Positions 2,103 to 64,000 are shown, counted from the stretch's first letter. The stretch: 64,000 bases of DNA from Gloeobacterales cyanobacterium (GCA_038245785.1 JBBRSB010000011.1:58189-122188); one strand, 5' to 3'. A program made the numbers and translations. Notes: a model not told the origin generated them from the sequence alone.

Positions 2103-2107
2103 TCGGT

Positions 2108-4232: not shown

Positions 4233-4343
4233 GTCGTCTGCCAAGGCTTCTGTATTTTTCTCTAAACTCATTAAGAGTCTCGTAACATTACACCCTAGGC
4301 TTTGCCATGCTATGCCTTAGAGATATACAGAAGGAATGCTCCT

Positions 4344-48340: not shown

Positions 48341-50587
48341 ATGAGCGAAAATGAACGCCCCGATCCACAAGGACTGCTGCGAGAGCTGATGCAGTATTCC
48401 AGAGGAAGACTAAAACTCTATCTGGGCTATGCTCCTGGCGTTGGCAAGACGACGCGGATGCTGCGGGATGCTCAGCAACTACACCAACGAGGGGTGGATC
48501 TGGTAGTGGGCATTGTTGAAACCCACGGCAAGCCAGAAACGATGCAGCTACTAAATGGATTGGAAGTCATGCCTCTGCGCTCAATTTCTTATCAGGGCAC
48601 GATTCAGACAGAGTTAGATCTGGAGGCTATTCTAGAGCACCGACCCGCTACCGTACTCATTGATGAATTGGCCCATACCAATGTTCCTGGCAGTCGCTAT
48701 CACAAGCGCTTTGAGGATGTGGAAGCCCTTCTGAACGCGGGCATTAGTGTACTCTCCGCCATAAATATTCAACATCTGGAGCGGGTATCTGAAACAGCGG
48801 GACGACTGATTGGTATTCCAGTTCACGAAGTGGTTCCTGACCGCTTTCTCCAACATGCGGATGAACTACAACTGGTCGATGCCAGCCCAGAGACCGTTCT
48901 GGAGCGGTTGGCCCAAGCTAAGATCCCAGTGGGTAGTCCTTTCTTGCGCCGCAGCACTCTGACCTACCTGCGTGAACTGGCTTTGCGCACCGTTGCTGAG
49001 GTCGTAGACGCAGATATTCTGGCTCGTCAATCTGGGGTTACAAGTCCGGCGGGCATCCGGGAACGCCTGCTCGTGGCGGTGAGTACCAGTCCTGCTTCTG
49101 CCCGACTGATCCGTCGCGGAGCACGCATCGCTGAATATCTCGATGCAGAGCTGTTTATTGTCTTCGTTGAGAATGGCCGACCTATCCCTGAAAGGCAGCG
49201 ACCCCTACTCCAAGAATATGAGCAATTCAGTCAGCAAGGCGGCGGACAGTTCGTTCGGTTGCAGGGTGTGAACATTGCAAAAACGCTGATTACCTTTGCT
49301 TTGGAAAAAAATATCACTCAGGTAATCGTCGGTGAATCGTTGCGCTCGCCTTTGGAGGAATTAGTGCGCGGCTCCGTCGTCAACGCGCTGCTGCGCTCTG
49401 GCAACAACCTGGATGTACTGGTAGTCGGTGAAACAGAGTCGGTGATCAATCTCCCCGCTCAGCCAAGGCCCTTACCTCAGCAGCGCACCTGCTTTTTGTC
49501 CACGAGCCAGGAACGCGGTGATCGCAACTGTGGACGGCACAAGATATATCTGGGAGCGGCTCCCGGCGTCGGCAAAACCTATACCATGCTCCAGGAAGCC
49601 CATGACCTGGCTGCTGCTGGGGTCGATCTAGTTTGCGGCGTTATTGAAACCCATGGTCGGGCCGAGACGGCTGCCCTGATCGAGGGTCTGGAGATGATTC
49701 CAAAGCGTTCCATTGTGTACCAAGGTCGAATTTTTCAGGAACTGGACCGCGAAGCCGTACTGGCGCGACGACCGGCAGTGGTCCTGATTGATGAGCTGGC
49801 CCATACCAACGTTCCCGGCACCGACACGAGCAAACGCTACCAGGATGTCGAGATTTTGCTAGCGGCGGGGATAGAGGTTATCTCGACCCTCAATATTCAG
49901 CACTTGGAGAGCCTGAATACCCTCGTGGAGCGCACAACGGGCGTCAAGGTGCGTGAGACGCTCCCAGACTTAGTAGTTGGGTGCGCTGATGAAGTGATGC
50001 TCATCGATCTATCCACGGATGAACTGACGCAGCGACTGCGCGAAGGCAAAATCTACAGTCCTGCCAAAGTAGAACAAGCCCTATCTAACTTCTTTCGCGC
50101 CGAAAACCTGATTGCGCTGCGAGAATTGGCTCTTCGAGAACTAGCCGACGATTGCACTACTACCAAAAACGGTAGTGGAACAGCCCGACCGGATGAATGC
50201 GTAATGGTTTGCGTCAACCTGCGTCCGAACGCTCGGCAGCTGATCCGCAGAGGAGCCCGTATTGCCCGACGATTGGGAGCACGACTGGTCGTTGCCTATA
50301 TCCACCATCTAGCAGGAGAGTCCCTAACGGCTGCGATGCGCGAAGAATTGGGTCGTCTTCAACAGTTGAGCACAGAACTGGAAGGCATTTTTATCGAGCA
50401 GTCAGCCAACGATGTTGTCACTCAAATCGTCCTTCTTGCCCAAGCGCAGTCTGCCACTTTGCTGATCCTGGGAGAATCGCGTCGTTCTTGCTGGGAGGAG
50501 GTATTCCATGGTTCGGTCATCGAACAGGTCCTACGTCGAACGCGCAATCTGGATACGCTCATCGTTGGCAATTTTGAACGCGAGTAA
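48341..50587 (+). CDS. kdpD: Stand-alone KdpD N-terminal protein with tandem (KdpD-domain + USP) x2
   Basis: Two copies of G(Y/A)APGVGKT...ETHG...DELAHTN...NIQHLE...LRELALR, each followed by a USP domain; no TM or His-kinase domain. Confidence 0.88.
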   Translation: MSENERPDPQGLLRELMQYSRGRLKLYLGYAPGVGKTTRMLRDAQQLHQRGVDLVVGIVETHGKPETMQLLNGLEVMPLRSISYQGTIQTELDLEAILEHRPATVLIDELAHTNVPGSRYHKRFEDVEALLNAGISVLSAINIQHLERVSETAGRLIGIPVHEVVPDRFLQHADELQLVDASPETVLERLAQAKIPVGSPFLRRSTLTYLRELALRTVAEVVDADILARQSGVTSPAGIRERLLVAVSTSPASARLIRRGARIAEYLDAELFIVFVENGRPIPERQRPLLQEYEQFSQQGGGQFVRLQGVNIAKTLITFALEKNITQVIVGESLRSPLEELVRGSVVNALLRSGNNLDVLVVGETESVINLPAQPRPLPQQRTCFLSTSQERGDRNCGRHKIYLGAAPGVGKTYTMLQEAHDLAAAGVDLVCGVIETHGRAETAALIEGLEMIPKRSIVYQGRIFQELDREAVLARRPAVVLIDELAHTNVPGTDTSKRYQDVEILLAAGIEVISTLNIQHLESLNTLVERTTGVKVRETLPDLVVGCADEVMLIDLSTDELTQRLREGKIYSPAKVEQALSNFFRAENLIALRELALRELADDCTTTKNGSGTARPDECVMVCVNLRPNARQLIRRGARIARRLGARLVVAYIHHLAGESLTAAMREELGRLQQLSTELEGIFIEQSANDVVTQIVLLAQAQSATLLILGESRRSCWEEVFHGSVIEQVLRRTRNLDTLIVGNFERE

Positions 50588-52423: not shown

Positions 52424-55036
52424 GTGGCTCTCTCTAAAGCATCCAAGAACACTTCGAGAAATTCCTACAAGCATTTTCTTGCGACGACTTTACTGATCAG
52501 TGGAGCCTTGTCCTTGGCTACTCCCGTATTCGCAGATGGCACGGTGGCAGGGACCGGAATTAGCAACACGGCTACGGCTACCTATACAGACCCAGTAACC
52601 GATCCTACAGGGGCAACTCCGATTCCCGCTACCTCCAACACTGTCCAGATCACGGTTAGTGAAGTGGCTGGTATTACAGTCGTAGCCCAACCTCCGAGCA
52701 ATGCAGCTCCTAACGCAGGCGACACCGTCTACGTCGATTATGTAATTACAAACACGGGTAACGACCCCACCCAATTCTTCATTCCTGGCACGGTCACCTT
52801 CTCCAATACAACAGCCTTTAGTCAAGGAACTATTCAAGTCGTGGCCGTCAATGGTACTGCCATCACTGCGGTGAACGTCCCGGCAGCAGGAGCTTCTACG
52901 AGTACTTTAGGTGTGGGGGCTTCTGGCTCTATCGCCGCCACAGGCAGCATCACGGTTCGTGTGCCGATTACTGTTTCTGGATTGGCTACCGCAACAACTG
53001 CGCTCACGGTTGCTTTAGGAAACACCGCTACCGCTGACCAGCAAAACCAAGCCTCTGTCGCAGGGGGCGTCAATGGTAGTCCTTCTCCAGCGAGAGATTT
53101 GATTACCCAGGATAATCCTACGGCCAGCGGGAGCGGAACTACCCAAGAACTGAATGCAACCGCTCCTGTCAACGGCGAACGTGAAGCAATGGCTACCAGT
53201 ACGGCCATCACCGTAGCGGCTAGACTACAAGCCTTCGTCAGCGTTTTGAAGGCTACGGGTAGCTACACCAACAGTGGAACCCCGAACGCCCTCAGCGATG
53301 ACATCCTGACCTACAACTTGGCCTTGCGCGTTGAGAATCCCGTACCAGGAGCTGGCTTAGTCTCTTCTGACTTGTATGCCACCCAGGTCAATGTAGATGG
53401 AAGCAATGTCAATCGTGTGCTGATCTCGGATGCTATCCCAGCTAATACCCAACTGAGCGCGGCTACACCTACGGCTCCTAGTGGTTGGACACCTGTTTAC
53501 ACCGTAAGCCCCAGCGGGACGAATCCGCTCCAAGCCAACTGGGTCACGGCCCGTCCCGGCGGAACGATCACCCGCGTCGGTTTTATCAACAACGGTCCCA
53601 TTACCAAAGGCACCACGGTCGGCACAACGGGTTCCTTCTTCACCTTTAGCGTCAATCCTACTGCTGGCTTCACCGGCGGTCAGGTAGCGAACCTGGCTCA
53701 GACCTTTGGTCAATCGCAGCCAGGTGCTGTCGTAGCGAATACCGCTACTCAGCTTGTGTACGATGAATCCGGGGACCAAACTTATAACAACGGCTTGATT
53801 GGCACGAACCCCGATCCACTCACTGGGGGCACGGCGGCTGCCTCGGGCGGTATCAGCAACGGAGTCGCCTCTGTGACAGCCGATGGCACGGACACGGGTA
53901 CAGGAACTGACCCTACGAATACAGGGACCACAAACTTAGGCCTAGATACTGGCGTGAATGCTGGTACGAAGCCTGCCGGTGGGGAAGATACCATCTACTC
54001 CATCGCGGCGGTTCCTCTGAATGGCCCCAGTGGACAACCAGGGGCAACAGGTCCGGCAGGCTCAGGGGACACCAACAATGACTTTACCAATCGGTCGCTG
54101 ATTCCACCCGCTGGCCTCAATCCCGCTACAGCCCTGACGGATGCGCAAACTACAGCCGTTACCTTTACGAATACGGTTCAGAACACCAGTGCGGCGTCCC
54201 AGGTTATTGCTCTACTGCCCACGCCTCCTGCCGTTGCAACAGATTTACCCGATAACACCAAAGTCACGATAACAGACCCCATTTCAGGAAATACCGCACT
54301 CTACAACTACACGGCTGCGGGCGGGTTTGCCTTTGTTTCTGGAACTGGAACGACAGCTACGAGCCCGATCAAACTAACTGTTGCCGGAGGAGGAACCGCA
54401 AACTACACCATCACCGTTGACCTCCCGGCTGCTGCTCAGCTTACGGGCTATCCTGTTCCCCTCACTTCCTTTATTGATCAGAACGGTAACGGCCTACCGG
54501 ATACTTCTGAGCCTAATAACAAGACCATTGACCGAGTATACACAGGGTATCTACAGTTGCTCAAGAAGTCTCGTATTCTACAAGGAACGGGGCCTGCCGT
54601 ATCGGCTGCGGATGCGGTTTTGGATGCTAATCCAAAGTCGCCTGCCCCCGGCAATATCATTGAGTATCAGGTTTCTTACCAAAACATCTCACTCCCCGCC
54701 GGATCTGGCACGGGCAATGTGGTTTTGAACGCAGCCAACGTCACCATTACGGAGAATGGAACGATTGGCAGCGGTGGCAATAACTGGGCTCTGGACAATG
54801 CGGCTCCGGCTGGTGTGATTGACACCAGTAATGTTGCAAGTTCAGCCACTGATCCTACGGCTGGTGCAGTGATCACCTTCTTCAGTGGGGCTGGCCCGAA
54901 CCCGGCAGGGGCTGCAACCACGACCACGAGCGGGACTAGCCAAGCAACGGACGTCACTAAATATGTCGATACCGTGGGCACCATCGCTCCTGGTGCTTCC
55001 GTAGGAACCTTCACTTTCCAACGCAAGCTCAACTAA
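52424..55036 (+). CDS. Secreted Thr/Gly/Ala-rich multi-Ig (DUF11-like) surface protein, putative major subunit
   Basis: Signal peptide ending PVFA; N-terminal GTVAGTGISNTATATY; DUF11-like units (GDTVYVDYVITNTGN; VLK..DILTYNL..ISDAIP..ANLAQ; LLKK..PGNIIEYQVSYQN); ends TFTFQRKLN. Confidence 0.85.
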   Translation: MALSKASKNTSRNSYKHFLATTLLISGALSLATPVFADGTVAGTGISNTATATYTDPVTDPTGATPIPATSNTVQITVSEVAGITVVAQPPSNAAPNAGDTVYVDYVITNTGNDPTQFFIPGTVTFSNTTAFSQGTIQVVAVNGTAITAVNVPAAGASTSTLGVGASGSIAATGSITVRVPITVSGLATATTALTVALGNTATADQQNQASVAGGVNGSPSPARDLITQDNPTASGSGTTQELNATAPVNGEREAMATSTAITVAARLQAFVSVLKATGSYTNSGTPNALSDDILTYNLALRVENPVPGAGLVSSDLYATQVNVDGSNVNRVLISDAIPANTQLSAATPTAPSGWTPVYTVSPSGTNPLQANWVTARPGGTITRVGFINNGPITKGTTVGTTGSFFTFSVNPTAGFTGGQVANLAQTFGQSQPGAVVANTATQLVYDESGDQTYNNGLIGTNPDPLTGGTAAASGGISNGVASVTADGTDTGTGTDPTNTGTTNLGLDTGVNAGTKPAGGEDTIYSIAAVPLNGPSGQPGATGPAGSGDTNNDFTNRSLIPPAGLNPATALTDAQTTAVTFTNTVQNTSAASQVIALLPTPPAVATDLPDNTKVTITDPISGNTALYNYTAAGGFAFVSGTGTTATSPIKLTVAGGGTANYTITVDLPAAAQLTGYPVPLTSFIDQNGNGLPDTSEPNNKTIDRVYTGYLQLLKKSRILQGTGPAVSAADAVLDANPKSPAPGNIIEYQVSYQNISLPAGSGTGNVVLNAANVTITENGTIGSGGNNWALDNAAPAGVIDTSNVASSATDPTAGAVITFFSGAGPNPAGAATTTTSGTSQATDVTKYVDTVGTIAPGASVGTFTFQRKLN

Positions 55037-55141
55037 AGGAGATGATTTGGGCATCCTGATTAGAGAGGTGTCCCCAGGTGACCTTTGTGGTACTTCCCTC
55101 TACTTATCTTGTTCTGTCAAACCGCGTAAAGGATATCAATC

Positions 55142-55693
55142 ATGAAGCGTTTATTCATCACTAGTTTTGCTACGGTTGCTCTGATGGTGCCTATGCTCTT
55201 CGGTGCTGCTGCCTTCGCTAAGGATGCTGCGCTTGCTCAAAGTGCTCAAGTCAAACCTCAAGTCCAATTGGTTCTGGCTGCTGAAAAGAAGATTCTGAAG
55301 AAGGACGAAAAGGGCAAGGAGCAGGTGACCTGGCAAGCGCTGGATAGTGGCAAGACCAATGTCCAATCTGGAGATACGGTCCGCTACACCGTGATTGGCA
55401 AAAACATTAGCGATAAGCCTGCCTCGAATTTAGTAATTACTGAGCCTGTGCCCAAGGGTACGGTTTATGTCTTGAACTCCAATGGTATGGAAGGGGCAGC
55501 AAAAGTTACCTACAGCATCGACGGAGCCAAGAACTATGTTGAGAAGCCTATGGTCCAAGTGTCTCTTCCTAACGGCAAAGTAGAGTCTAAACCTGCTCCC
55601 GCAGAAGCTTATACCAATGTCCGTTGGAATTTTGCAAAGAACCTTGGCCCTAAAGCAGCCGTAAAAGCGATGTATGAAGTAAAGGTGCGCTAA
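55142..55693 (+). CDS. Small secreted single-DUF11 protein
   Basis: Signal peptide; SGDTVRYTV, LVITEPVPKGTVYV, YSIDG, YTNVRW, ends MYEVKVR. Confidence 0.85.
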   Translation: MKRLFITSFATVALMVPMLFGAAAFAKDAALAQSAQVKPQVQLVLAAEKKILKKDEKGKEQVTWQALDSGKTNVQSGDTVRYTVIGKNISDKPASNLVITEPVPKGTVYVLNSNGMEGAAKVTYSIDGAKNYVEKPMVQVSLPNGKVESKPAPAEAYTNVRWNFAKNLGPKAAVKAMYEVKVR

Positions 55694-55736
55694 TCCGATC
55701 GATTGGCCCTCTCTTCTTACAGCTAATCATCACCAA

Positions 55737-55761
55737 GTGCCCCCATATTCTGTGGGGGCGC
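55737..55761 (+). other. Intra-operon stem-loop
   Basis: GTGCCCCCATA-TTC-TGTGGGGGCGC, 11-bp stem with G-U pairs, no U-tract. Confidence 0.55.
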
Positions 55762-55774
55762 GGGAGAAGCTGAC

Positions 55775-57271
55775 GTGAAGTGTTTAAGAAGACAAGATTT
55801 AAATCAAGGGAGAAAAAAGCTATTTGCCACAGCTGCTCTCCTGAGCACTGTCTTATCTTTAGTTGGTGCTGCCCAGGCTCAAACGGGTTCTAGATATATT
55901 AACCAAGCTTCTGCTGATTATCAAGATTCCCTTACCGAGACAAACTTTACCACTACGTCGGGTAATCCACTTACTTCCCAACTGGTTGACCCTTTGGGCA
56001 GAATTACAGGCTGTGGAGGAGAAACCTTACCGAATTACGAGGGTTTCAGTGTCGGTCTATATGACACTCCCAATGGCACAGATCTAGGCGCACCCATCCG
56101 TCTGACCCCAACCGAACTGCCGGATATTCCGGGAAATGGCATTCCTGCCGGGAGCTTTCCAAATGGACAAAATAGCAACCCCTATTTTCTCTCTAACAGC
56201 AACCAGGGACGCTATAGCTTTCTTCTGGATGATACAAAGGGTCAATTGGCCCTGGGTCGCACCTACATCATGGTGGTTAATCCAGCCGCTGGCTCGAATT
56301 TCAGACAACGCAGGGTGCTGATTAATATCACAAACCGCGTTGGCAATACCATCAGCTATACGGCCAAAGCCTTAGATGGGGCGGGATTGGCTATAGAGGC
56401 TGGAGACCCGACAGAGACAGGGACTTTGCTCGTAGGTGATGCAGGCTCTGTTGGCTTAACGGTTGCCTTCCAGGGGCTGCAAGCCTGTGTGGGTGACGCT
56501 CCAGCCCTACAAATCACTAAAACAGGAGACCGGGCGGCCGCTGAACCAGGAGACACGGTGGTCTATCGCGTTTCGGTACGCAGTCTGATTAGCACTCCGA
56601 TTACTAATATCGTGCTCACCGATACTCTACCGCTGGGATTTAACTTTTTAGAGAATTCGGTACGGGCACAGGCAGACAATAGTCCTGTCACCGGAGTAAC
56701 CACCCAGCGCAATGGTCCAACGGTCACCTTCACCGTACCCGGTATTCTGCCAGCCGGAAGTACCTTAAATGTAGTCTATGCGGCACTGCTCACCCCCGAT
56801 GCCCTGCGTGGCTCCGGGATAAACTCTGCCATAGTCCAGGGCCAAGGCCCCCGTGGTCTGACTCAAGATGGCCCAGCCACCTATAGAATCCGCGTTCGGG
56901 CAGGCATTTTGTCCGATGGTGGCACCTTGATCGGACGGGTTTTCGTAGACAAGAACTTCGATGGCGAACAACAACCTGGTGAAGCGGGCGTTGCCAATGC
57001 CGTAGTTTTTCTTGAGGATGGCACCCGCATTACCACCGATCCTAACGGTCTATTCTCGGTCGCTAATGTTCTGCCGGGTGCGCACACGGGCGTTTTAGAC
57101 CTCAACAGTCTCCCTGGCTATACCCTCGCGCCCAACTTTCAGTTCATCGAGCGCAATAGCCAATCTCGCTTAGTGCGTATGGCTCCAGGGGGCCTAGCCC
57201 GAATGAATTTTGGGGTGACGCCAATTTTTGGCGCTTCCGGTAGCCAAGGCACAGGAGTCGCTAAGCCATGA
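55775..57271 (+). CDS. Secreted DUF11 + SdrD-B-like protein
   Basis: Signal peptide; YINQASADY; LQITKTGDRAAAEPGDTVVY..LTDTLPLG..GINSAIV; IGRVFVDKNFDGEQQPGEAGV. Confidence 0.85.
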   Translation: MKCLRRQDLNQGRKKLFATAALLSTVLSLVGAAQAQTGSRYINQASADYQDSLTETNFTTTSGNPLTSQLVDPLGRITGCGGETLPNYEGFSVGLYDTPNGTDLGAPIRLTPTELPDIPGNGIPAGSFPNGQNSNPYFLSNSNQGRYSFLLDDTKGQLALGRTYIMVVNPAAGSNFRQRRVLINITNRVGNTISYTAKALDGAGLAIEAGDPTETGTLLVGDAGSVGLTVAFQGLQACVGDAPALQITKTGDRAAAEPGDTVVYRVSVRSLISTPITNIVLTDTLPLGFNFLENSVRAQADNSPVTGVTTQRNGPTVTFTVPGILPAGSTLNVVYAALLTPDALRGSGINSAIVQGQGPRGLTQDGPATYRIRVRAGILSDGGTLIGRVFVDKNFDGEQQPGEAGVANAVVFLEDGTRITTDPNGLFSVANVLPGAHTGVLDLNSLPGYTLAPNFQFIERNSQSRLVRMAPGGLARMNFGVTPIFGASGSQGTGVAKP

Positions 57272-60200
57272 AGCCGGATCTTCTTCTCCAAAGACTGGGA
57301 CTAGTAGGCCTTCTAGCTGGTACGCTGAATGTTTTGGCTTTCACCTTTGCGGTCCAAGCAGAGCCTGAGTCAGTATCCTCGCCAGCGCTTCATTCGCCCG
57401 AAGAGCAGACTACGTCTCCAGCTTCTCCACAGCTTCCACAAGCTCTACAGACGGATCTGCAAATATCCAAGCCTATACTCCCCGATGTGACCGAGGGCCA
57501 GGTGCGTATTCTCACACCCACACCAGAGAATATTCTGGATGTCCCAGCGGCCACGATTACTCTCCAGTTCGTCGAGGGCAGTCCGGTCAACCTCCAGGTT
57601 AATGGCCTATCTGTAAACGATAATCAGATCGGTCGCACTGAGACCAATAAAACGACCAAAGTAGTCACCCAGACCTGGTATGGAGTGACGCTGAATGAAG
57701 GTGAAAATACGATTACCGCTCAAATCAAAGCAGGAGCGGTCGCTAGCACCAAAGTCCAAGTACGGGGCACGCCCAAGCAGCTGAAAGTCCAAGCGGTCAC
57801 CGAGCGCATTCCTGCAGACGGTCGTTCAACTACGGTAATTCGCGGACAACTCTTGGATGCTCAGGGCAATCGTTCCAGCCGTGATGTATTGGTGACCTTG
57901 ACGCCAGAAGCGGGAGAATTCGTTGGGGCCGACTACGATAAAGACAAAGTGGGCTTTCAAGTCCAGGCCCGTCAAGGTCAGTTCGAAGCGACGCTGCGCG
58001 CTAGTCTACAGGCTCAGGTGGCTAAGGTACGCGCAAGCATAGGAGATAGCGAGGCTTCCACTCAGGTCCGATTTGAAACCAACCTCCGTCCTTCCCTGGC
58101 AACGGGCGTGGTAGATGTCCGCTTCGGAGCCAGAGGCACGGATTATTACAGTGGGTTTCGAGAATTTTTGCCTGCCGACCGAAACAATAGCCCGAAATTA
58201 GATCTACGCAGCGCACTTTTTACTACCGGAAAAGTAGGCGAGTGGCTCTTTACCGGAGCCTACAATACTAACCGTGCCCTCAATCAAGACTGCAACGGCA
58301 CGACGCGCTTTTTACGAGATGCCCAGGTCTGTGACCAGCAATATCCCGTCTATGGAGATAGTTCTAGCAGTATTCGGGTGGCCCAATCCCAGGACAGTGT
58401 CTTTCTGCGTCTGGAGCGCAACCAGGACTTCATCACCTGGGCGGACTACGACACCCAAGAATTGGCTACAGCTTCCCAGGAATTTTCAGCCCTGAACCGA
58501 CAGCTTCACGGCTTAAAGCTGAACTACAACGCCGGGAATCTACAGTTCACAGGATTCTATGGCGACAATGTTCAGGGCTTTCAGCGCGATACGATTCCTC
58601 CTGATGGGACCAGTGGTTATTACTTCCTCTCTCGTAGACTGCTAGTGGCAGGTACAGAAAATGTCACCATCGAAACCCAGGAATTCGACCGTCCTGGCAC
58701 CGTCCTAGAGCGCAAAACCCAAACGCGGGGGGTGGATTACGATATTGATTACGACCGTGGCTCGCTGCTATTTCGCCAACCCCTGCTGCGTACGGATGTA
58801 GACGCAAAAACAGGAGTGACCCTGGTTCGCCAACTGGTTGTTACCTATCAGTATGAAAACCAGCAAAATGCCAATATCTATGGTGGGCGGGTTCGCTATC
58901 ACTTCTCGAAAGAGCTGAATCAGGAAAGCTGGCTAGGAGCCACCTACTTTCGAGAAAATCAGGGCGTCCGTAATTTTGAACTTTACGGAGCCGATGCGCT
59001 GATCCCGCTGAGCCCCAAGTTCAAGCTGATTGCGGAATACGCCCGTTCTGCCAATGAGTCTGACCTGTTAGGTCCTGTCTCAGGTTCTGCCTATCGCCTA
59101 GAAGCTAAAGGAGAACTCTTTGGTGGCGTTCAGAGCCGGGTCTATTGGCGTTCTGCCGAAACAGGGTTTGCCAACAACGCCACGATCAGTTTTATCCCTG
59201 GTCAGACCCGCTATGGAACAGAACTGACGGCTCAAGTAGCCCCAACGACCAATCTCCACCTGCAATATGACCATGAAGACAATGTCGGCGTTGTGCCCCA
59301 ACCGCTCAATAACCTGACAGACCTGCTCACGCCCCGCAGCCAAGCTTTACCTGGTAGCGCAATCAATACAGGCTTGACCACGATTACAGCGGGCGTGCAG
59401 CAAAAAATCGGTCCGTCTGAGCTGACGGTGGATTGGCTCAATCGAAATCGCTCGGACCGGAATACAGGACAAGAAAGCATTTCCAGCCAGTTGCGTTCGC
59501 GGCTTGAGCTACCGCTCACCAACAAGCTCACCTTGCGCGCCCAAAATGAACTCAATCTTGGCTCCACCCAGGACGCCGTCTACCCTGACCGCACCACCCT
59601 CGGATTGGAATGGGCAGTTTATCCCGGTGTAAGCATTCAGTTGAATCAGAATTTCATCGCGGGCGGGCAGCTTGGCTCCAATTCGTTCACCAGTTTGGAT
59701 ACTAAGGCCGATTACAAACTGGCAGAAAATACCAGTCTGAACGGACGCTACTCGATTCTGAGTGGTATCAATGGTCTATCTGGCCAGGGTGCGCTCGGTC
59801 TCAATCATCGCTGGGTCGTCTCTCCAGGGCTTAGACTCAATCTTGGCTATGAGCATGTATTTGGCGATGCTTTTACGAATACAGGCGTGGGTCCCCAGTT
59901 CGCCCAGCCCTTCGCCTCTGGCCAAGGGGTCAGCGCCCTAGGCGTGCAAGCAGGAGATAACTACAACCTTGGTTTCGAATATACCGACAGCCCTGACTTC
60001 AAGGCTAGTGCCCGCTATGAGCACCGCTCCAGCGCCGGGGGCACGAACACCGTTATCACGGCAAACGCAACGGGTAAAATCACCCCTTCGTTGACAGCGC
60101 TCTTGCGTTACAACCAGGCAGGGACAGCCAACCAATCCCTGGGAGGGCTAGGCGATACCAGTAGTCTGAAGCTAGGGTTAGCCTACCGCGACCCGAAAGA

Positions 60201-60951
60201 TGATACATTCAACGCCCTTCTGCGCTATGAGTATCGCAAAAATCCTTCGATTATCCCTGAAAACTTACTTTTAGGCACTGGCACTAGTTCAGAAGACCAC
60301 ACCCTAGCTTTTGAAGCGATTTATGCACCGAACTGGCAGTGGGAACTCTATGGCAAATATGCACTTCGTAGCAGCAGCACTCAGCTGGACCAAAACTTCA
60401 CCAGCTCCAGCTTGATTAGCCTGGCCCAATTGAGAGCCACCTATCGCTTTGCCTATAACTTTGATCTAGTCGGAGAAGCTCGCTGGATCAGCCAACCCCG
60501 TGCCGGATATAGCGAAACGGGTGGAGTTGCAGAAGTAGGGTATTACCTCTCGCCCAATCTCCGTCTGGCGGCGGGCTATAGCTTTGGAAATGTCAACGCT
60601 GGAGATTTTGGGGGCACGCGTTCGGCTGGGGGCTTTTATGCAGGTCTGACGGTCAAAGTTAATGAACTTTTTGATGGATTTGGATTGCAAAGAGTAGCGC
60701 CTCCGCAACAGCAGGAATCGCAACTGGCCCAAGTTCCTCTGTCTTCTGAATCTAATAATAAGCTTGTTTCAATCCCGCCCGCCCCCTTCTTTGCACCTCC
60801 AGGAATCAAGTTTTTTCCACCCCTCAATGACCAGACGCTAACGATTTTCCAGACCCCCAAAAATATAGCAGTTAAGAGTCGTCAGGAATTAATCCAGGCT
60901 AGCGAGTTAGCTGCACCCCTGGGAAACCTGAGTGAGCTACATGCTCAGTAG
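57268..60951 (+). CDS. Large outer-membrane protein: N-terminal Ig-like domains plus C-terminal beta-barrel
   Basis: Signal peptide; Big/invasin-like IPADGRST..LLDAQGN; long run of amphipathic strands with aromatic girdles (e.g. EVGYYLSPNLRLAAGYSFG); ATGA overlap with upstream gene. Confidence 0.8.
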   Translation: MKPDLLLQRLGLVGLLAGTLNVLAFTFAVQAEPESVSSPALHSPEEQTTSPASPQLPQALQTDLQISKPILPDVTEGQVRILTPTPENILDVPAATITLQFVEGSPVNLQVNGLSVNDNQIGRTETNKTTKVVTQTWYGVTLNEGENTITAQIKAGAVASTKVQVRGTPKQLKVQAVTERIPADGRSTTVIRGQLLDAQGNRSSRDVLVTLTPEAGEFVGADYDKDKVGFQVQARQGQFEATLRASLQAQVAKVRASIGDSEASTQVRFETNLRPSLATGVVDVRFGARGTDYYSGFREFLPADRNNSPKLDLRSALFTTGKVGEWLFTGAYNTNRALNQDCNGTTRFLRDAQVCDQQYPVYGDSSSSIRVAQSQDSVFLRLERNQDFITWADYDTQELATASQEFSALNRQLHGLKLNYNAGNLQFTGFYGDNVQGFQRDTIPPDGTSGYYFLSRRLLVAGTENVTIETQEFDRPGTVLERKTQTRGVDYDIDYDRGSLLFRQPLLRTDVDAKTGVTLVRQLVVTYQYENQQNANIYGGRVRYHFSKELNQESWLGATYFRENQGVRNFELYGADALIPLSPKFKLIAEYARSANESDLLGPVSGSAYRLEAKGELFGGVQSRVYWRSAETGFANNATISFIPGQTRYGTELTAQVAPTTNLHLQYDHEDNVGVVPQPLNNLTDLLTPRSQALPGSAINTGLTTITAGVQQKIGPSELTVDWLNRNRSDRNTGQESISSQLRSRLELPLTNKLTLRAQNELNLGSTQDAVYPDRTTLGLEWAVYPGVSIQLNQNFIAGGQLGSNSFTSLDTKADYKLAENTSLNGRYSILSGINGLSGQGALGLNHRWVVSPGLRLNLGYEHVFGDAFTNTGVGPQFAQPFASGQGVSALGVQAGDNYNLGFEYTDSPDFKASARYEHRSSAGGTNTVITANATGKITPSLTALLRYNQAGTANQSLGGLGDTSSLKLGLAYRDPKDDTFNALLRYEYRKNPSIIPENLLLGTGTSSEDHTLAFEAIYAPNWQWELYGKYALRSSSTQLDQNFTSSSLISLAQLRATYRFAYNFDLVGEARWISQPRAGYSETGGVAEVGYYLSPNLRLAAGYSFGNVNAGDFGGTRSAGGFYAGLTVKVNELFDGFGLQRVAPPQQQESQLAQVPLSSESNNKLVSIPPAPFFAPPGIKFFPPLNDQTLTIFQTPKNIAVKSRQELIQASELAAPLGNLSELHAQ

Positions 60952-61162
60952 TAGATTTAGTCACAGAGGTCCATTTCATGAATTTGCGCGCGATTCTTTT
61001 CCAAGATCTAGCTCTTCTTGGGTGAAGCCCTTCCTCTGAGTGGGTTACTAAAGGCTACCTATATGGGTATTACTAACAGTAGAGGAGTAGGTATTCGCAA
61101 AAGTGGGGAATGTCCCTAAATTTGCTGCCTGAGGGCTCCTATTCATCTCGGATTGGATAAGA

Positions 61163-63844
61163 ATGAACGCTCAAATTAAGGAGCGCAACGCCCATAAAAG
61201 CATCCAAAAACTTCTCCATATGGTGATGTTTTTGGTCTGGGTTTTTACCGGCCTATTCCCAATTCAGCCTGTGCAAGCAGCTTTTCCTGGAATTGACGGC
61301 AGTTTGACCGTCACTTCCGCCAATACGATTTTGAATCAGTACAGTTCTGTAACCTCCATCAGTGGCAACACGATTACGGTGAGCGATATTAACAATTTGT
61401 TGAGTTCTGTAGTTAGTTCTAATGGATCCTTGGGGGCGCTGGCTCCAGGGGACCTACTCATGATTTACCAGGCTCAGGGTGCCACGATCGATGCAACCAA
61501 TACGGCCAGCTATGGCAGCGTTTCTAGCTATAACAGTGCGGGACGCTATGAATTTGTCGTCGTAGGCAGTATTAGCGGTAATACGATTACCTTGGCGACC
61601 ACCTGCGGCAATCTCAAAAATATCTACTCATCAACCTTTGCCCAAGTGATCCGGGTGCCACAATTTTCAAGCCTGACCATCAATAGTGGAGCTTCCGTAA
61701 CTGCCTCTGCCTGGAATGGTTCAACGGGAGGAATCGTTGCCATGCATGTGCAGGGAACCACTACGGTTAATGGCCAAATCGACCTAACCGGTAAAGGATT
61801 TCGCGGCGGCGCTGTCGTGAACAACAGCGGAAACAATTCGGGAAGCACGACGTATCGCTCAAGCGGTAGTTACACAACGGGCGGTTTTGGCAATGGAGGG
61901 TTTACGGAGGATACCGTCGTCGGCGGTGAAAAGGGAGAAGGCATTGCCGGAAGCCAAACCAACTACGACACCTTGAACGGACGCTATGGACGAGGCGCGC
62001 CAGCCAATGGCGGCGGCGGTGGAACGGGGCACAACAGTGGCGGTGGCGGTGGAGCCAATGGAAACAATGGAGTTGCCTGGAATGGTCAAGGAAATCCTGA
62101 TACCAGTGGTACTGGTTGGACAACCGCATGGAATCGCGATCCAAGCTTGAGTGCTACAACTACCTCGGCTGGTGGCGGTCGTGGGGGCTACACCTACTCT
62201 GCTAATGATCGGAACGCTGCTACTACCTCTCCAGGCAATACAAGCTGGGGCGGAGATAATCGTCAAGAGGTGGGCGGTTTGGGCGGACGCCCTCTGGATT
62301 ACTCAGGTGGAGCACAAGCTCGCCTTTTTCTAGGGGGTGGGGGCGGTAGTGGGGATGCAAACAACAGTGCAGGGAGTGCTGGGGGCAATGGCGGTGGTAT
62401 GGCCTACCTGATTTCCAACAGCGTCACAGGTTCTGGCAGCATTCAGGCCAGTGGCACCAATGGAGGAGATACAACGGGTGGTCACAATGATGCTCCAGGC
62501 GGCGGCGGCGGCGGCGGTACCATTGTTGTGAAGGCAAGCGGCAGCCTCACGCTCAACGCCAATGGCGGTAATGGCGGTAGTCAGCTGATTACGGGAAACG
62601 AAGCTGAAGGACCAGGCGGTGGCGGTGGTGGTGGTTATATCGCGGCTACAGGCGGCACACAGACTGTCAATGCGGGAGTGAATGGCCTCACAAGTTCTAG
62701 CGCGCTAACTGAATTTAAACCCAATGGTTCTACCCGTGGGGCTCCGGGACAGACGGCGCCTCCGCCGACGGATGCCAATATTCCTCTTTGCTATACCCCT
62801 CAGATTGGAGTCGCTAAAGCTGTAAGTGCTGCCATGACTCGCAATAGCAGTAGTACGAGTTTCACCATTCCCTTTTCAATCGTGGTGAAAAATCAGGGGG
62901 ATGTCTTCCTGACCAACAGCCAAATTACAGAGAACTTGGCAACAACTTTTCCGCCAGGAGCTACCTCCAGTGTCACGAGTGCTCCGACGGTGACTTCAGG
63001 AAAACTGCTGACTATCAATCCCAGCTTCAATGGCGCCACTAATACGAATTTACTGTCTTCTGGACAATCTTTAGATATTGGAGAACAGTCCACCATTACC
63101 TTTAGTGTTCAAGTCACCCCAGACGCTATGCAAAGCTTCGGTCCATACAATAATCAGGCAACGGGTTCATCTACAGGCAATACTCCCAGTGGTAGCAACT
63201 TCAACACCACCGATCTTTCGGATAACGGTACCAATCCAGATGCCAACGGGAATGGCTTCCCCAACGAGACGAATGAAAATGATCCTACGCCTGTGCGGTT
63301 TACCCATTTGCGATTGGTCAAACGGATTACGGGGATTAAAAAAGGAACTACCTTAATACCCGTTACGGGCTACAACAACTTTGCTACAGATCCTAATGAC
63401 AACCCTACGGTGAGCTGGCCTAGTGGGGCGGCTACTTATTTGACAGGAGCTTTTGATGGTGCCCAAATTCCCACACCAATGCCAGGTTTACCTGGGCCTA
63501 ATGACGAAGTAGAATATACCATCTACTTCTTGTCTGATGGCGGTGCAGATGCGAGCAATGTAATCCTCTGTGATTTCATCCCTACAAATCAACAGTTTGT
63601 CCCTGGCACGATTCAGCGCAATGTGGGGGGTACTACTACAAATATTGCTGACGGCTCTGGTACAGGTCCAGGCAATGGATTTTATAACAGCACTAATACT
63701 TCTTTTCCCGCTGCCTGCCCAAGTGCCAATAATCATGGAGAGGGTGCTGTCTACGTTCAAATGGGTGTAATACCGACAGTAACGATCACTCCTACGCCTA
63801 GTACGTATTACGGCTTCCTGCGCTTCCGAGCGAAAGTGAAGTGA
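61163..63844 (+). CDS. Secreted Gly-rich adhesin-like protein with two DUF11-like domains
   Basis: Signal peptide ending PVQA; GDLLMIYQAQG, GRYEF, QVIRVPQ, AWNGSTGG; many G5-G7 runs; IGVAK..YNNQAT; LRLVKRIT..EYTIYF..LCDFIP; ends FRAKVK. Confidence 0.85.
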   Translation: MNAQIKERNAHKSIQKLLHMVMFLVWVFTGLFPIQPVQAAFPGIDGSLTVTSANTILNQYSSVTSISGNTITVSDINNLLSSVVSSNGSLGALAPGDLLMIYQAQGATIDATNTASYGSVSSYNSAGRYEFVVVGSISGNTITLATTCGNLKNIYSSTFAQVIRVPQFSSLTINSGASVTASAWNGSTGGIVAMHVQGTTTVNGQIDLTGKGFRGGAVVNNSGNNSGSTTYRSSGSYTTGGFGNGGFTEDTVVGGEKGEGIAGSQTNYDTLNGRYGRGAPANGGGGGTGHNSGGGGGANGNNGVAWNGQGNPDTSGTGWTTAWNRDPSLSATTTSAGGGRGGYTYSANDRNAATTSPGNTSWGGDNRQEVGGLGGRPLDYSGGAQARLFLGGGGGSGDANNSAGSAGGNGGGMAYLISNSVTGSGSIQASGTNGGDTTGGHNDAPGGGGGGGTIVVKASGSLTLNANGGNGGSQLITGNEAEGPGGGGGGGYIAATGGTQTVNAGVNGLTSSSALTEFKPNGSTRGAPGQTAPPPTDANIPLCYTPQIGVAKAVSAAMTRNSSSTSFTIPFSIVVKNQGDVFLTNSQITENLATTFPPGATSSVTSAPTVTSGKLLTINPSFNGATNTNLLSSGQSLDIGEQSTITFSVQVTPDAMQSFGPYNNQATGSSTGNTPSGSNFNTTDLSDNGTNPDANGNGFPNETNENDPTPVRFTHLRLVKRITGIKKGTTLIPVTGYNNFATDPNDNPTVSWPSGAATYLTGAFDGAQIPTPMPGLPGPNDEVEYTIYFLSDGGADASNVILCDFIPTNQQFVPGTIQRNVGGTTTNIADGSGTGPGNGFYNSTNTSFPAACPSANNHGEGAVYVQMGVIPTVTITPTPSTYYGFLRFRAKVK

Positions 63845-63877
63845 TCCCCCTAGCTAATGCAACCCCTTGTATGTTGA

Positions 63878-63945
63878 GAGTGAGCGGTAAACCGATAACC
63901 CCTTGATACTGGATATCGTGGCTGAGCCTAGGTTGCCGCTTACTC
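63878..63945. terminator. Long stem-loop closing the DUF11 operon
   Basis: GAGTGAGCGGTAA ... TTGCCGCTTACTC 13-bp arms with G-U pairs. Confidence 0.45.
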
Positions 63946-64000
63946 GCTCTTGAACCCGAACAGTCGCTTGGGGCCATGACCCCGTATGAGCAAGGGCGGG
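63940..64000 (-). CDS. Possible C-terminal end of a convergent gene running off the window
   Basis: Open minus frame PPLLIRGHGPKRLFGFKSE-stop; too short to identify. Confidence 0.3.
   Translation of the reverse strand, partial: PPLLIRGHGPKRLFGFKSE

What the first reader, a model, noticed from the sequence alone, without database searches (positions are those of the whole stretch)
52424..63844. Five-gene DUF11 operon: candidate donor-strand, isopeptide-crosslinked pilus with its own outer-membrane assembly barrel
Seen: all five proteins have signal peptides. Complete DUF11 units here show a first-strand Lys, a mid acidic residue and a late Asn strand (VLK/ISD/ANLAQ; ITK/LTD/INSAI; VAK/ITE/NNQAT). 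Three proteins end abruptly at the strand before the Asn strand (TFTFQRKLN, MYEVKVR, LRFRAKVK). Two proteins begin their mature chain with exactly such an Asn strand (ISNTATATY, YINQASADY). Established: DUF11/Cna-like Ig folds can form Lys-Asn isopeptides catalysed by Asp/Glu, and chaperone-usher pili polymerise by donor-strand exchange. Inference: 870 aa = shaft (donor+acceptor), 893 aa = tip (acceptor only), 498 aa = base (donor only, translationally coupled to the barrel), 1227 aa = usher-like pore, 183 aa = chaperone or cap. No PapC/PapD, sortase or type IV pilus genes are present in the window. I know of no characterisation of this assembly logic, but could not search the literature.
Basis: partly seen in the sequence, partly recalled or inferred. 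Interest (0 to 1): 0.92.

Follow-up and report, generated by a model that had tools for sequence, protein, structure and literature searches.

The report
Split-domain snap-together surface fibre operon
Five neighbouring genes of a cyanobacterium encode secreted proteins in which one small adhesin-type domain is cut in two, so that the proteins probably plug head to tail, and probably lock chemically, into a surface fibre rooted at a giant outer-membrane barrel, a kind of pilus I could not find described in print.

Summary

- **P1 (870 aa, shaft):** it starts its mature chain with a two-strand hairpin carrying invariant Asn48. It ends in a domain with invariant Lys714 and Glu777 that stops before its own Asn strand (102 of 102 homologues).
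- **Docking model:** the hairpin docks into that domain with ipSAE 0.79, best of 3 controls 0.00. The mark was reached by 116 of 157 solved complexes and 2 of 215 mismatched pairs.
- **P5 (893 aa, tip):** acceptor only. In 77 of 77 full-length relatives the domain sits 0-5 residues from the C-terminus.
- **P3 (498 aa, base):** donor only, and its stop overlaps the barrel gene's start.
- **P4 (1227 aa):** two Ig-like domains and about 39 long strands. It is not an usher homologue.
- **P2 (183 aa):** an acceptor-like domain whose catalytic acid is Gln in 39 of 43 relatives. I read it as a non-covalent donor cap.
- **Context:** gene order is conserved across cyanobacteria, and distant relatives fuse base and barrel. 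The genome has no usher, PapD or sortase.

The covalent bond, polymer formation and export are inferred. The principle has precedents (BsaA, archaeal threads); the parts do not. This scan's earlier notes flag the same kind of operon in eight other genomes.

The parts
52424..55036 (+). P1, 870 aa, shaft subunit (donor hairpin + about five Ig-like domains + acceptor domain)
   Evidence: ORF. It has at least 687 homologues, and all 120 listed carry PF25546. AF2 model pLDDT 79.0, pTM 0.44. Domains resemble Gram-positive pilin CnaA domains: BcpA Z 9.3, rmsd 2.4-2.6, 122-126 aligned.
52550..52657 (+). P1 donor hairpin, residues 43-78 (strand with Asn48, then strand with Ser71-Asn72)
   Evidence: I46, N48, A50, D56, S71, N72 are invariant in 102/102. 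Strands 46-55 and 67-76 appear in the AF2 model. The hairpin docks into P1 700-870. It is homologous to the P3 N-terminus: hhalign prob 91%, E 9e-7.
53237..53791 (+). P1 DUF7925 domain, a complete CnaA-like domain with its own K276/D336/N423 triad
   Evidence: Pfam PF25546, E 1.3e-56. The triad is invariant. The family was built from predicted intramolecular isopeptide domains (PMC12617251, passages).
54545..55033 (+). P1 acceptor domain, residues 708-870 (Lys714, Glu777; ends before an Asn strand)
   Evidence: K714 and E777 are invariant. Both lie among the interface residues with N48. Strand 770-776 pairs with donor residues 50-55, and strand 712-714 with donor residues 69-74. Pfam finds no family in this piece alone.
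55142..55693 (+). P2, 183 aa, single acceptor-like domain without a conserved catalytic acid; candidate reversible donor cap
   Evidence: DUF11, profile positions 10-58 of 114 only. hhalign to the complete DUF11 of P3: prob 95.9%. Acid position: Gln 39, Asp 2, Glu 1 (this window), Gly 1 of 43; Lys in 26/43; Lys plus acid together in 1/43. Present in 10 of 11 loci with a shaft gene and 0 of 3 without.
55775..57271 (+). P3, 498 aa, base subunit (donor hairpin, complete DUF11, SdrD_B-like domain, conserved C-terminal motif); no acceptor
   Evidence: DUF11 at 245-334 and SdrD_B at 388-438. Internal triad K249/D283/N350 in 54/54; C-terminal motif near-invariant. The stop overlaps the P4 start.
55889..55999 (+). 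P3 donor hairpin, residues 39-75 (Asn43)
   Evidence: Aligned column: N 48, gap 5, A 1 of 54. Homologous to the P1 donor.
57155..57223 (+). P3 C-terminal motif (residues 461-483), candidate barrel-docking segment
   Evidence: R465, V467, P471, N478 and F479 are invariant in 54/54. The role is inferred from gene overlap and from base-barrel fusions.
57268..60951 (+). P4, 1227 aa, outer-membrane barrel protein
   Evidence: AF2 of residues 31-1150: pLDDT 77.8, pTM 0.70. 1628 homologues of the barrel part. No Pfam family over its cut-off.
57502..58077 (+). P4 tandem Ig-like domains (protein residues ~79-270)
   Evidence: Invasin_D3 29 bits, cut-off 33. Intimin D0-D1 Z 12.3-12.4, rmsd 1.9-2.1, 93 aligned; GH2 Ig tandems Z up to 14.6.
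58096..60657 (+). P4 barrel region (protein residues ~277-1130), 39 strands of 7 or more residues by DSSP plus a ~75-residue insert
   Evidence: DSSP list. Only generic barrel matches: OccAB1 Z 13.1, MtrB 12.3, PapC 11.2, FimD 10.1; SlpA TM 0.21-0.25, SprA 0.10-0.18.
61163..63844 (+). P5, 893 aa, tip subunit (variable head + Ig-like domains + acceptor domain); no donor
   Evidence: NCBIfam AgmC_N at 43-342, E 8e-53 but below cut-off (179.8 vs 275). Heads of relatives vary from 633 to 2123 aa while the last domain is kept.
63305..63841 (+). P5 acceptor domain, residues 717-893 (Lys720, Cys803-Asp804, Cys852; ends ...RFRAKVK)
   Evidence: EY[TS].[YF] and CD motifs in 86/86 tip-like ORFs, Lys motif in 80/86. 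hhalign to a complete DUF11: prob 94%, with Asp804 on the catalytic Asp. 77/77 full-length matches end 0-5 residues from the C-terminus and none is internal.

Best explanation
The operon encodes a surface fibre built by splitting one CnaA/DUF11-type Ig domain between neighbouring subunits.

**Acceptors and donors.** P1 and P5 each end in a domain that lacks its last two strands. P1 and P3 each begin, just after the signal peptide, with exactly such a two-strand hairpin, whose first strand carries the Asn.

**Coupling.** Inserting the hairpin of the next subunit completes the domain. It brings the donor Asn next to the acceptor Lys and acid: K714/E777 in P1, K720/D804 in P5. An autocatalytic Lys-Asn isopeptide can then lock the joint.

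**Order of assembly (inferred).**
1. The tip P5 goes first (variable head, acceptor only).
2. P1 is added n times (donor + acceptor).
3. The base P3 ends the chain (donor only).

**Anchor.** P3 stays tied to the giant barrel P4, which serves as exit pore and anchor.

**P2.** It is an acceptor-like domain that has lost the catalytic acid. It probably caps the donor hairpin of P1 reversibly in the periplasm, since P1 is the only subunit able to polymerise with itself.

**Shown in silico:** the split, its conservation, the docking model, the gene linkage and the fusions.

**Inferred:** complementation in trans for P1, the covalent bond, the order of assembly, export through P4, and the role of P2.
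For: 1. **Invariant residues.** N48 (donor), K714 and E777 (acceptor) are invariant in 102/102 P1 homologues.
2. **Docking model.** P1[38-80] docks on P1[700-870] with ipSAE 0.78/0.79/0.85 (median 0.79), best of 3 controls 0.00. The mark was reached by 116 of 157 solved complexes and 2 of 215 mismatched pairs. Runs agree in at least 91% of contacts, partner pLDDT is at least 86, and my own alignment was used. Donor 50-55 pairs with 770-776, and donor 69-74 with 712-714. N48, K714 and E777 are all interface residues.
3. **Acceptor-only and donor-only proteins exist**, so completion must come from another chain.
   - The tip-type domain is terminal in 77/77 full-length matches and never internal.
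   - The donor motif is found in 4/77 tips against 102/102 P1 and 46/54 P3.
4. **Selection follows the predicted chemistry.**
   - The acid is invariant in P1 (102/102), and CD is present in 86/86 tips.
   - The acid is Gln in 39/43 P2.
5. **Truncated terminal domains in distant relatives.** The terminal DUF11 hit stops at profile position 84 or 90 of 114, while an internal copy in the neighbouring gene spans 3-113.
6. **Gene linkage.**
   - The five-gene order is kept in 10 of 16 fetched loci.
   - Three short loci keep base + barrel + tip only.
   - The barrel lies upstream of the tip in 49 of 55 loci.
7. **Base-barrel fusions.**
   - One 2744-aa ORF joins a donor N-terminus, DUF11, SdrD_B, three SLH domains and the barrel.
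   - Eight further distant long forms carry DUF11, seven of them with OmpA, CarboxypepD_reg or SdrD_B as well. Four of the eight have a donor motif after the signal peptide.
8. **No usher, PapD or sortase** in the genome.
Against: - No experiment bears on any step.
- The docking score is a model's confidence. It may reflect likeness to complete Ig-type domains or to solved tag/catcher pairs. It cannot tell cis from trans.
- The Lys714-Asn48 distance was not reported, and model coordinates could not be read.
- In the AF2 monomer the N-terminal strands are confident (pLDDT about 65-84). They may therefore dock in cis there.
- Pfam finds no family in the isolated P1 donor or P1 acceptor.
- hhalign links the P1 acceptor to a complete DUF11 only weakly: prob 52% over 34 columns.
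- The donors do not align significantly to the last strands of complete domains.
- Only the P1-P1 pair was modelled. P5-P1, P1-P3, P5-P3 and P2-P1 were not.
- In the barrel-linkage count, 6 of 55 loci with room upstream lack a barrel next to the tip-like gene.
- The paralogous operon has a shaft gene but no P2.
- SLH or OmpA domains between the donor part and the barrel in fused relatives show that part of the base is periplasmic. The topology I propose needs the chain to thread the barrel.
Confidence: 0.62

Rival explanations
1. The same head-to-tail strand complementation occurs, but without an intermolecular covalent bond, or only as a short defined stalk (tip-base, or tip-one shaft-base) rather than a long polymer. 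The conserved Lys and acid would serve folding or hydrogen bonding only.
For: No distance or bond was seen in any output. P2 shows that this fold can keep its shape with Gln at the acid position (39/43). Three short loci have only base + barrel + tip. Chaperone-usher and type V pili work without covalent links (established knowledge).
Against: Lys, acid and donor Asn are invariant together in 102/102 P1. The acid is lost only in P2, which fits selection for chemistry rather than for fold. The same triad forms bonds in the complete domains of this clan (PMC12617251, passages) and between chains in BsaA.
Confidence: 0.15
2. These are monomeric fibrillar adhesins. The P1 hairpin closes P1's own last domain in cis. 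The terminal domains of P5 and P2 are complete variants of the fold. The barrel is a dedicated secretion pore or anchor.
For: The docking model cannot tell cis from trans. The N-terminal strands are confidently placed in the monomer model. DUF11-type proteins are usually monomeric stalks (PMC12617251, passages).
Against: P3 carries a conserved donor hairpin but no acceptor. P5 carries an acceptor but no donor (73/77). The terminal DUF11 hits of distant relatives stop at profile position 84-90 of 114. The P1 and P3 donors are homologous. Closing P1 in cis would need a rod of about six domains to bend back on itself (inference).
Confidence: 0.1
3. The conserved C-terminal domain is chiefly a sorting signal read by the giant barrel, as the C-terminal domain of type 9 secretion substrates is read by its translocon. 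The N-terminal motif is unrelated to it.
For: The domain is strictly C-terminal (77/77) on proteins with very different heads. The barrel is very large, about 39 long strands. SprA is among the Foldseek matches. Some tip-like genes lie away from any barrel (6 of 55).
Against: This reading does not explain the invariant donor Asn hairpin, its docking, the donor-only base, or the loss of the acid in P2. There is no Por_secre_tail hit. The SprA match is weak: TM 0.10-0.18. The reading can coexist with the main one.
Confidence: 0.08
4. The barrel is an ordinary transporter, as many database records call it ('TonB-dependent receptor'), and merely lies beside adhesin genes.
For: NCBI and UniRef name many homologues 'TonB-dependent receptor'. 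Cir and FpvA appear among the fold matches.
Against: There is no Plug or TonB_dep_Rec hit at E up to 0.01. The gene order is conserved. The base gene overlaps the barrel gene. Base and barrel occur as natural fusions.
Confidence: 0.03

Closest known systems
Chaperone-usher pili (type 1 and P pili: FimH/PapG tip, FimA/PapA rod, FimI/PapH terminator, FimD/PapC usher, FimC/PapD chaperone)
   Same: The division of labour matches: a tip with an adhesin head and an acceptor only, a shaft with donor and acceptor, and a terminator with a donor only. An incomplete Ig-type fold is completed by the N-terminal extension of the next subunit. An outer-membrane barrel is encoded in the operon. Growth would be from the base (inferred here).
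   Different: No part is homologous. PF00577 and PF00345 find nothing in the operon or the genome. The barrel has about 39 long strands by my DSSP count, against 24 in ushers (usher figure recalled). The donor is a two-strand hairpin, not one strand. The fold is CnaA/DUF11-like. A covalent lock is predicted. The small accessory protein looks like an acceptor that caps donors, the inverse of PapD, which donates a strand.
Clostridium perfringens BsaA (TasA family), 'exchange and lock' (bioRxiv 10.1101/2024.11.04.621531; abstract and section 8 read)
   Same: An N-terminal donor strand with Asn inserts into the next monomer, beside a Lys and a catalytic Glu. The abstract reports that mutations in the predicted bond-forming residues abolish oligomers. 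No sortase is involved.
   Different: BsaA has a TasA-type fold in a single-membrane bacterium, with a SipW peptidase and type IV pilus-linked secretion. It has no barrel and no tip/shaft/base set. Here the fold is an Ig-type CnaA/DUF11 domain, and the system has its own outer-membrane protein.
Sulfolobus acidocaldarius thread (PMC9715654; passages read)
   Same: Donor-strand complementation plus an inter-subunit isopeptide seen by cryo-EM, and no sortase identified.
   Different: It is archaeal, with no outer membrane. The bond joins Asn57 to the N-terminal amine of subunit n+2. The subunit is small, carries no Pfam domain, and has no tip/base set of this kind.
Sortase-assembled pili of Gram-positive bacteria (BcpA, SpaD, RrgB)
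   Same: Thin fibres of multi-domain CnaA/CnaB subunits with internal Lys-Asn bonds, in tip, shaft and base order. P1 domains match BcpA, SpaD and RrgB at Z 8-9.3.
   Different: There is no sortase in the genome, and no LPXTG signal at any C-terminus. The inter-subunit link would be autocatalytic inside a shared domain, not made by an enzyme. The anchor would be an outer-membrane barrel, not peptidoglycan.
CLIPPER/DUF11 intramolecular isopeptide domain (PDB 9IFR; PMC12617251) and the engineered tag/catcher pairs made by splitting such domains (SpyTag/SpyCatcher; PMC6539128, abstract seen in a listing)
   Same: The same clan of fold and the same Lys-acid-Asn chemistry. The natural split proposed here is what protein engineers did by hand.
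   Different: In CLIPPER all three residues lie in one chain. The survey that created DUF7925 treats these proteins as carriers of intramolecular bonds only. Its text never uses 'split' or 'strand complementation'.
Type V pili of Bacteroidota (Fim, Mfa)
   Same: Strand exchange without a PapD-type chaperone, and tip, shaft and anchor subunits.
   Different: Type V subunits are lipoprotein precursors cut by an Arg/Lys protease (passage in PMC9715654). By inspection, the five signal peptides here show no lipobox Cys.

Membership tests
Chaperone-usher pilus | Outer-membrane usher of family PF00577 | tested here: not met
   No Usher hit in P4 at E up to 0.01. PF00577 finds 0 matches in the genome, while the E. 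coli control rings. Fold: PapC Z 11.2 and FimD Z 10.1, below porin OccAB1 at Z 13.1.
Chaperone-usher pilus | Periplasmic PapD-like chaperone (PF00345) | tested here: not met
   No hit in the five proteins, in the 49 other ORFs or in the genome.
Chaperone-usher pilus | Subunit fold lacking its last strand(s), completed by the N-terminal extension of the next subunit | tested here: met
   Met in a model only. P1[38-80] completes P1[700-870]: ipSAE 0.79, best of 3 controls 0.00; 116/157 solved and 2/215 mismatched pairs reach the mark. Cis versus trans is not resolved.
Sortase-assembled pilus | Pilus-specific sortase (PF04203) | tested here: not met
   0 matches in the genome (98.2% complete). 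Controls ring in 3 Gram-positive genomes.
Sortase-assembled pilus | C-terminal LPXTG sorting signal with a membrane anchor | tested here: not met
   The C-termini read ...QRKLN...VKVR...GVAKP...ELHAQ and ...RAKVK. There is no LPXTG and no hydrophobic tail.
Sortase-assembled pilus | CnaA/CnaB domains with an internal Lys-acid-Asn triad | tested here: met
   DUF7925 E 1.3e-56 with K276/D336/N423 invariant. P3 DUF11 triad in 54/54. BcpA Z 9.3.
CLIPPER / DUF11 (PF01345) | HMM match over the gathering score | tested here: met
   Met for P2 (26.0 vs 24.6) and P3 (33 vs 24.6). Not met for P5 (18) or for P1 and P4 (no hit). TIGR01451 passes in P2, P3 and P5.
CLIPPER / DUF11 (PF01345) | Lys, acid and Asn of the bond all within one domain of one chain | tested here: not met
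   Not met for the terminal domains of P1, P2 and P5. They end before an Asn strand. Terminal DUF11 hits of distant relatives stop at profile position 84-90 of 114. It is met for the internal domain of P3.
TasA/BsaA 'exchange and lock' fibres | TasA-type subunit fold or family | tested here: not met
   No TasA or peptidase M73-type hit among the Pfam results at E up to 0.01. The folds found are Ig-like CnaA types.
TasA/BsaA 'exchange and lock' fibres | Donor-strand Asn facing an acceptor Lys and a catalytic acid | tested here: inconclusive
   N48, K714 and E777 are invariant and all lie in the modelled interface. No inter-residue distance was reported, and coordinates could not be read.
Type V pilus | Lipoprotein precursor (lipobox Cys) and protease-dependent strand exchange | tested here: not met
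   By inspection no Cys follows the hydrophobic stretch of any of the five signal peptides. The protease step is not testable here.
TonB-dependent receptor (the name many records give P4 homologues) | Plug domain and TonB_dep_Rec barrel families | tested here: not met
   No such Pfam or NCBIfam hit at E up to 0.01. The name appears only in source records.
Intimin/invasin inverse autotransporter | N-terminal 12-strand barrel followed by exported Big_1 domains | tested here: not met
   Ig domains like intimin D0-D1 are present (Z 12.3-12.4; Invasin_D3 29 bits, cut-off 33). However, they precede the barrel, which has about 39 long strands.
Type 9 secretion substrate and translocon | Por_secre_tail C-terminal domain and a SprA-type translocon | tested here: inconclusive
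   No Por_secre_tail hit. SprA entries appear in Foldseek at TM 0.10-0.18 only.

The most novel reading that the evidence does not exclude
This is a separate class of pilus of two-membrane bacteria, nature's own tag/catcher polymer.

- Subunits share one split CnaA/DUF11 domain and lock by an autocatalytic Lys-Asn bond without sortase, usher or PapD-type chaperone.
- Completing and locking the domain outside the cell would supply the pull for export through a barrel of about 40 strands, which also holds the terminating base subunit.
- A catalytically dead acceptor (P2) would act as an inverse chaperone. It would cap donor hairpins instead of donating a strand.
- Fused base-barrel forms with SLH or OmpA domains would tie the fibre to the cell wall.
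Probability: 0.45. Interest if true: 0.92.

Novelty: categorically new. Interest (0 to 1): 0.86.

Why it matters
**A new pilus pathway.** If true, this adds a pilus pathway to the short list known for two-membrane bacteria: chaperone-usher, type IV, type V and curli. It would be the first in which subunits are joined covalently without an enzyme.

**Energy for export.** It would make an old question testable, namely how a fibre is driven across an outer membrane that has no ATP. Here, folding plus an irreversible bond could act as a ratchet.

**Ecology.** The operon is widespread in filamentous and mat-forming cyanobacteria. The barrel was found in 32 of 201 sampled genomes of the phylum, and 582 tip-domain loci were confirmed. 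It may therefore matter for adhesion, mats, crusts and perhaps gliding.

**Protein engineering.** The many natural donor/acceptor pairs, and the natural 'dead catcher' P2, would be a ready source of orthogonal protein-ligation parts.

**Annotation.** Many records name the barrel 'TonB-dependent receptor' and the subunits 'hypothetical protein' or 'beta strand repeat-containing protein'. These names hide the system.

Tried and rejected
1. **Pfam on isolated pieces.** Nothing for the P1 donor, the P1 acceptor or the P3 donor. DUF11 is weak in the P5 acceptor (E 0.013).
2. **hhalign of donor hairpins against the last strands of complete domains.** Not significant (prob under 1%); the peptides are too short.
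3. **hhalign of P1 acceptor against P5 acceptor.** Prob 11%. The two acceptor types are far apart.
4. **Model coordinates.** They are not available to scripts. I could not read where the hairpin sits in the monomer model, nor measure the Lys-Asn distance.
5. **Barrel fold searches.** Only generic barrels turned up. The only sequence match in the PDB is a designed barrel (E 0.003). Atlas hits are unnamed or 'TonB-dependent receptor' clusters.
6. **Promoter and terminator scan.** 7 promoter-like sites against 9.5 expected, and 15 terminator-like sites against 11.7 expected. Uninformative.
7. **Sequencing runs.** No RNA holder is listed.
8. **Strict donor regex.** It was insensitive (65/102 P1, 2/54 P3), so I dropped it for a looser one. 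The '0 of 77' from the strict form carries no weight.
9. **Systems considered and rejected.**
   - The cyanobacterial tubular pilus of Microcystis: 12 kDa pilin, different fold (passages).
   - The Litorilinea grappling-hook protein: one giant chain of 49 DUF11 domains (passages).
   - Haloarchaeal tafi: the search hit came from DUF1102, not DUF11.
10. **Literature.** Eight searches found no description of this operon or of a split CnaA/DUF11 domain. Papers outside the open-access library and closed supplements were not seen.
11. One search was a format slip, repeated correctly. One search came too early and was collected.

Full report
**What is there.**
- P1, 52424-55036, 870 aa
- P2, 55142-55693, 183 aa
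- P3, 55775-57271, 498 aa
- P4, 57268-60951, 1227 aa
- P5, 61163-63844, 893 aa

By inspection each begins with a signal-peptide-like segment. The P3 stop and the P4 start overlap (ATGA). The window ends with its contig 156 bases after P5, so further genes downstream cannot be excluded.

The neighbours are housekeeping genes: coaBC, an rpoZ-like ORF (by my reading; not scanned), kdp genes, secDF, tatC and gatB. The nearest relatives of the tip domain are Myxacorys species, filamentous cyanobacteria.

**Families.**
- P1 carries DUF7925 (E 1.3e-56). This Pfam family was built from predicted intramolecular isopeptide domains, with a seed from UniProt Q8YS00.
- P2 and P3 pass the DUF11 cut-off. P3 also has an SdrD_B-like stretch.
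- P5 has an N-terminal region like the AgmC N-domain, below its cut-off, and weak DUF11/DUF7507.
- P4 has only sub-threshold Invasin_D3/Big_1.

So 'five-gene DUF11 operon' is loosely right.

**The split domain.**
In an alignment of 102 P1 homologues the invariant residues fall into three groups:
- the internal triad K276/D336/N423 of DUF7925;
- I46, N48, A50, D56, S71, N72 in two N-terminal strands just after the signal peptide;
- K714 and E777 in the last domain, which ends at ...TFTFQRKLN without an Asn strand of its own.

By my recollection of typical DUF11 repeats, the N-terminal segment looks like the last two strands of such a domain and the C-terminal domain like one lacking them. That pattern is recalled, not taken from a call. 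Distant relatives give a direct Pfam reading of the same thing. Their terminal DUF11 hits stop at profile position 84 or 90 of 114 within 1 to 7 residues of the protein end. An internal copy in the neighbouring gene spans positions 3-113.

**Docking.**
P1 residues 38-80 were modelled against P1 residues 700-870, each with my own alignment.
- The scores were ipSAE 0.78, 0.79 and 0.85 (median 0.79). The best of three controls was 0.00.
- The mark was reached by 116 of 157 solved complexes and 2 of 215 mismatched pairs.
- The runs agree in at least 91% of contacts, and the partner's pLDDT is at least 86.
- Donor residues 50-55 pair antiparallel with 770-776, the strand carrying E777.
- Donor residues 69-74 lie against 712-714, the strand carrying K714. 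L712 touches residue 52.
- N48, K714 and E777 are all interface residues.

From strand registers I infer that the three side chains face the same core. No distance was reported. The pass may reflect likeness to complete Ig-type domains or to solved tag/catcher pairs, and it cannot tell cis from trans.

**Why trans.**
The operon holds acceptor-only and donor-only proteins.

- *Tip-type acceptor (P5).* A profile of the P5 terminal domain found 9584 representatives at E up to 0.001.
  - Of the best 150, 77 match the full profile. All 77 matches end 0-5 residues from the C-terminus, and none is internal.
  - The other 73 are giant repeat proteins with partial matches.
  - Tip-like ORFs keep the EY[TS].[YF] and Cys-Asp motifs in 86 of 86 and the Lys strand motif in 80 of 86.
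- *Donor motif.* A loose donor motif occurs in 102/102 P1 and 46/54 P3.
  - On a related pattern, four P3-like ORFs without a match begin at the locus edge or at a doubtful start.
  - It occurs in only 4/77 tip-type proteins, of which one looks genuine, in 1/120 barrels and in 0/43 P2.
- *Base (P3).* It has the donor hairpin, a complete DUF11 with its own triad (54/54) and a near-invariant C-terminal motif, but no acceptor.
- *Donor homology.* The donors of P1 and P3 are homologous (hhalign prob 91%).

**P2.**
P2 aligns to the front half of a complete DUF11 (prob 95.9%), with its residue 101 on the catalytic Asp. It ends before any Asn strand.
- In 43 relatives that position is Gln 39, Asp 2, Glu 1 (this window) and Gly 1.
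- The Lys is present in 26 of 43. Lys and acid occur together once.
- P2 is present in 10 of 11 loci with a shaft gene and in none of 3 without.

I read it as a reversible cap for the donor hairpin of P1, the only subunit that could polymerise with itself. This is inference.

**The barrel.**
AF2 of P4 residues 31-1150 (75-row alignment) gave pLDDT 77.8 and pTM 0.70. It shows two Ig-like domains, then 39 strands of 7 or more residues, with a ~75-residue insert after the seventh.
- The Ig tandem resembles intimin D0-D1: Z 12.3-12.4, rmsd 1.9-2.1, 93 aligned.
- The barrel matches only generic barrels: OccAB1 Z 13.1, MtrB 12.3, PapC 11.2, FimD 10.1; SlpA and SprA at low TM.
- It is not an usher by sequence. 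It is not a TonB-dependent receptor by Pfam, though many records call it so.

**Linkage.**
- The barrel was found in 32 of 201 sampled genomes of the phylum: 26 in the same class, including this genome, and 6 in other classes at 25-36% identity.
- Of 16 loci fetched around it, 10 keep the five-gene order.
- The paralogous operon in this genome has shaft, base, barrel and two tips but no P2.
- Three loci have only a short base, barrel and tip. Two are distant forms.
- Around 80 tip-domain loci, the barrel lies upstream in 49 of the 55 with 4.5 kb or more to see. Of 34 with 7 kb or more, 27 show P2+P3+P4, 5 show P3+P4, 1 shows P4 only and 1 shows none.

**Fusions.**
In a distant genome one 2744-aa ORF joins a signal peptide, a donor-like N-terminus, DUF11, SdrD_B, three SLH domains, FlgD_ig and the barrel. 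Its sister locus has the same parts as two genes.

Among 16 long barrel forms:
- Eight distant ones all carry DUF11, and seven of them also carry OmpA, CarboxypepD_reg or SdrD_B in various combinations. Four of the eight have a donor motif just after the signal peptide.
- The eight close Moorena-type forms have no donor.

This ties base and barrel physically and suggests a wall anchor. It also means that part of the base is periplasmic.

**Known systems.**
The logic parallels chaperone-usher pili, but no part is homologous, and the genome lacks usher, PapD and sortase. The 'exchange and lock' principle is in print for BsaA (abstract and section 8) and for archaeal threads (passages). Eight literature searches found no account of this operon or of a naturally split CnaA/DUF11 domain.

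This scan's own earlier notes report the same reading in eight other genomes. These are unchecked AI notes, not independent evidence.

**Verdict.**
The split, its conservation and the gene logic are solid. The docking is supported by a model. The covalent bond, the polymer, the export route and the role of P2 are inferred.

Noticed in passing
L003 (G000:C1:276000-295900), minus strand: A second, paralogous operon lies in the same genome. It holds a 787-aa shaft-like gene, a 492-aa base, a 1197-aa barrel (62-65% identical) and two tip-like genes (982 and 1361 aa), but no P2-like gene.
   Followed up: partly
L038, L046, L047: Short three-gene variants exist: a 308-361-aa base (donor hairpin directly followed by the complete DUF11), a barrel and a tip-like gene, with no shaft and no P2. 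This looks like a minimal 'adhesin clipped to a barrel-bound stub' form.
   Followed up: partly
L042 1971-10205 and L045 2571-10538 (genome G016, other class of the phylum): The base and barrel occur as one 2744-aa ORF in one locus and as two genes in the other. Both have three SLH domains and an FlgD_ig domain between the DUF11/SdrD_B part and the barrel.
   Followed up: partly
P0399-P0406 (no locus): Distant long barrel forms (2187-4906 aa) all carry DUF11, and seven of the eight also carry OmpA, CarboxypepD_reg or SdrD_B in various combinations. Four of the eight start with a donor motif after the signal peptide.
   Followed up: partly
window 63569-63574 and 63716-63718 (P5 Cys803-Asp804, Cys852): The tip-type acceptor domain has two invariant cysteines, one directly before the catalytic Asp (16/16; CD in 86/86). 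A disulfide beside the reactive site is possible.
   Followed up: no
window 55442-55444 (P2 Glu101): This window's P2 is the only one of 43 with Glu at the acid position, and the only one with Lys plus acid together. It may be a reactive exception or a chance change.
   Followed up: no
P0312 (1360 aa): One tip-type protein among 77 has a convincing donor hairpin at its N-terminus. It is a shaft-like subunit built on the tip-type acceptor.
   Followed up: no
window 63845-64000: The contig ends 156 bases after the P5 stop. Relatives often carry a second or third tip-like gene downstream, so the operon may be cut here.
   Followed up: no
window 492-5795: Two ORFs of 536 and 629 aa without any Pfam hit lie directly upstream of a HerA-like ATPase gene (PF05872, E 1e-222). 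This could be an uncharacterised three-gene module.
   Followed up: no
window 48341-50587: A 748-aa protein has two KdpD sensor-domain stretches and two Usp stretches but no kinase domain. It sits beside a separate histidine kinase and a LuxR-type response regulator, near kdpABC.
   Followed up: no
L113: One of the 80 best tip-domain loci is filed as a 'Candidatus Gracilibacteria' MAG while carrying the full base-barrel-tip set. All other named records among the 80 are cyanobacteria. Probably a binning error.
   Followed up: no
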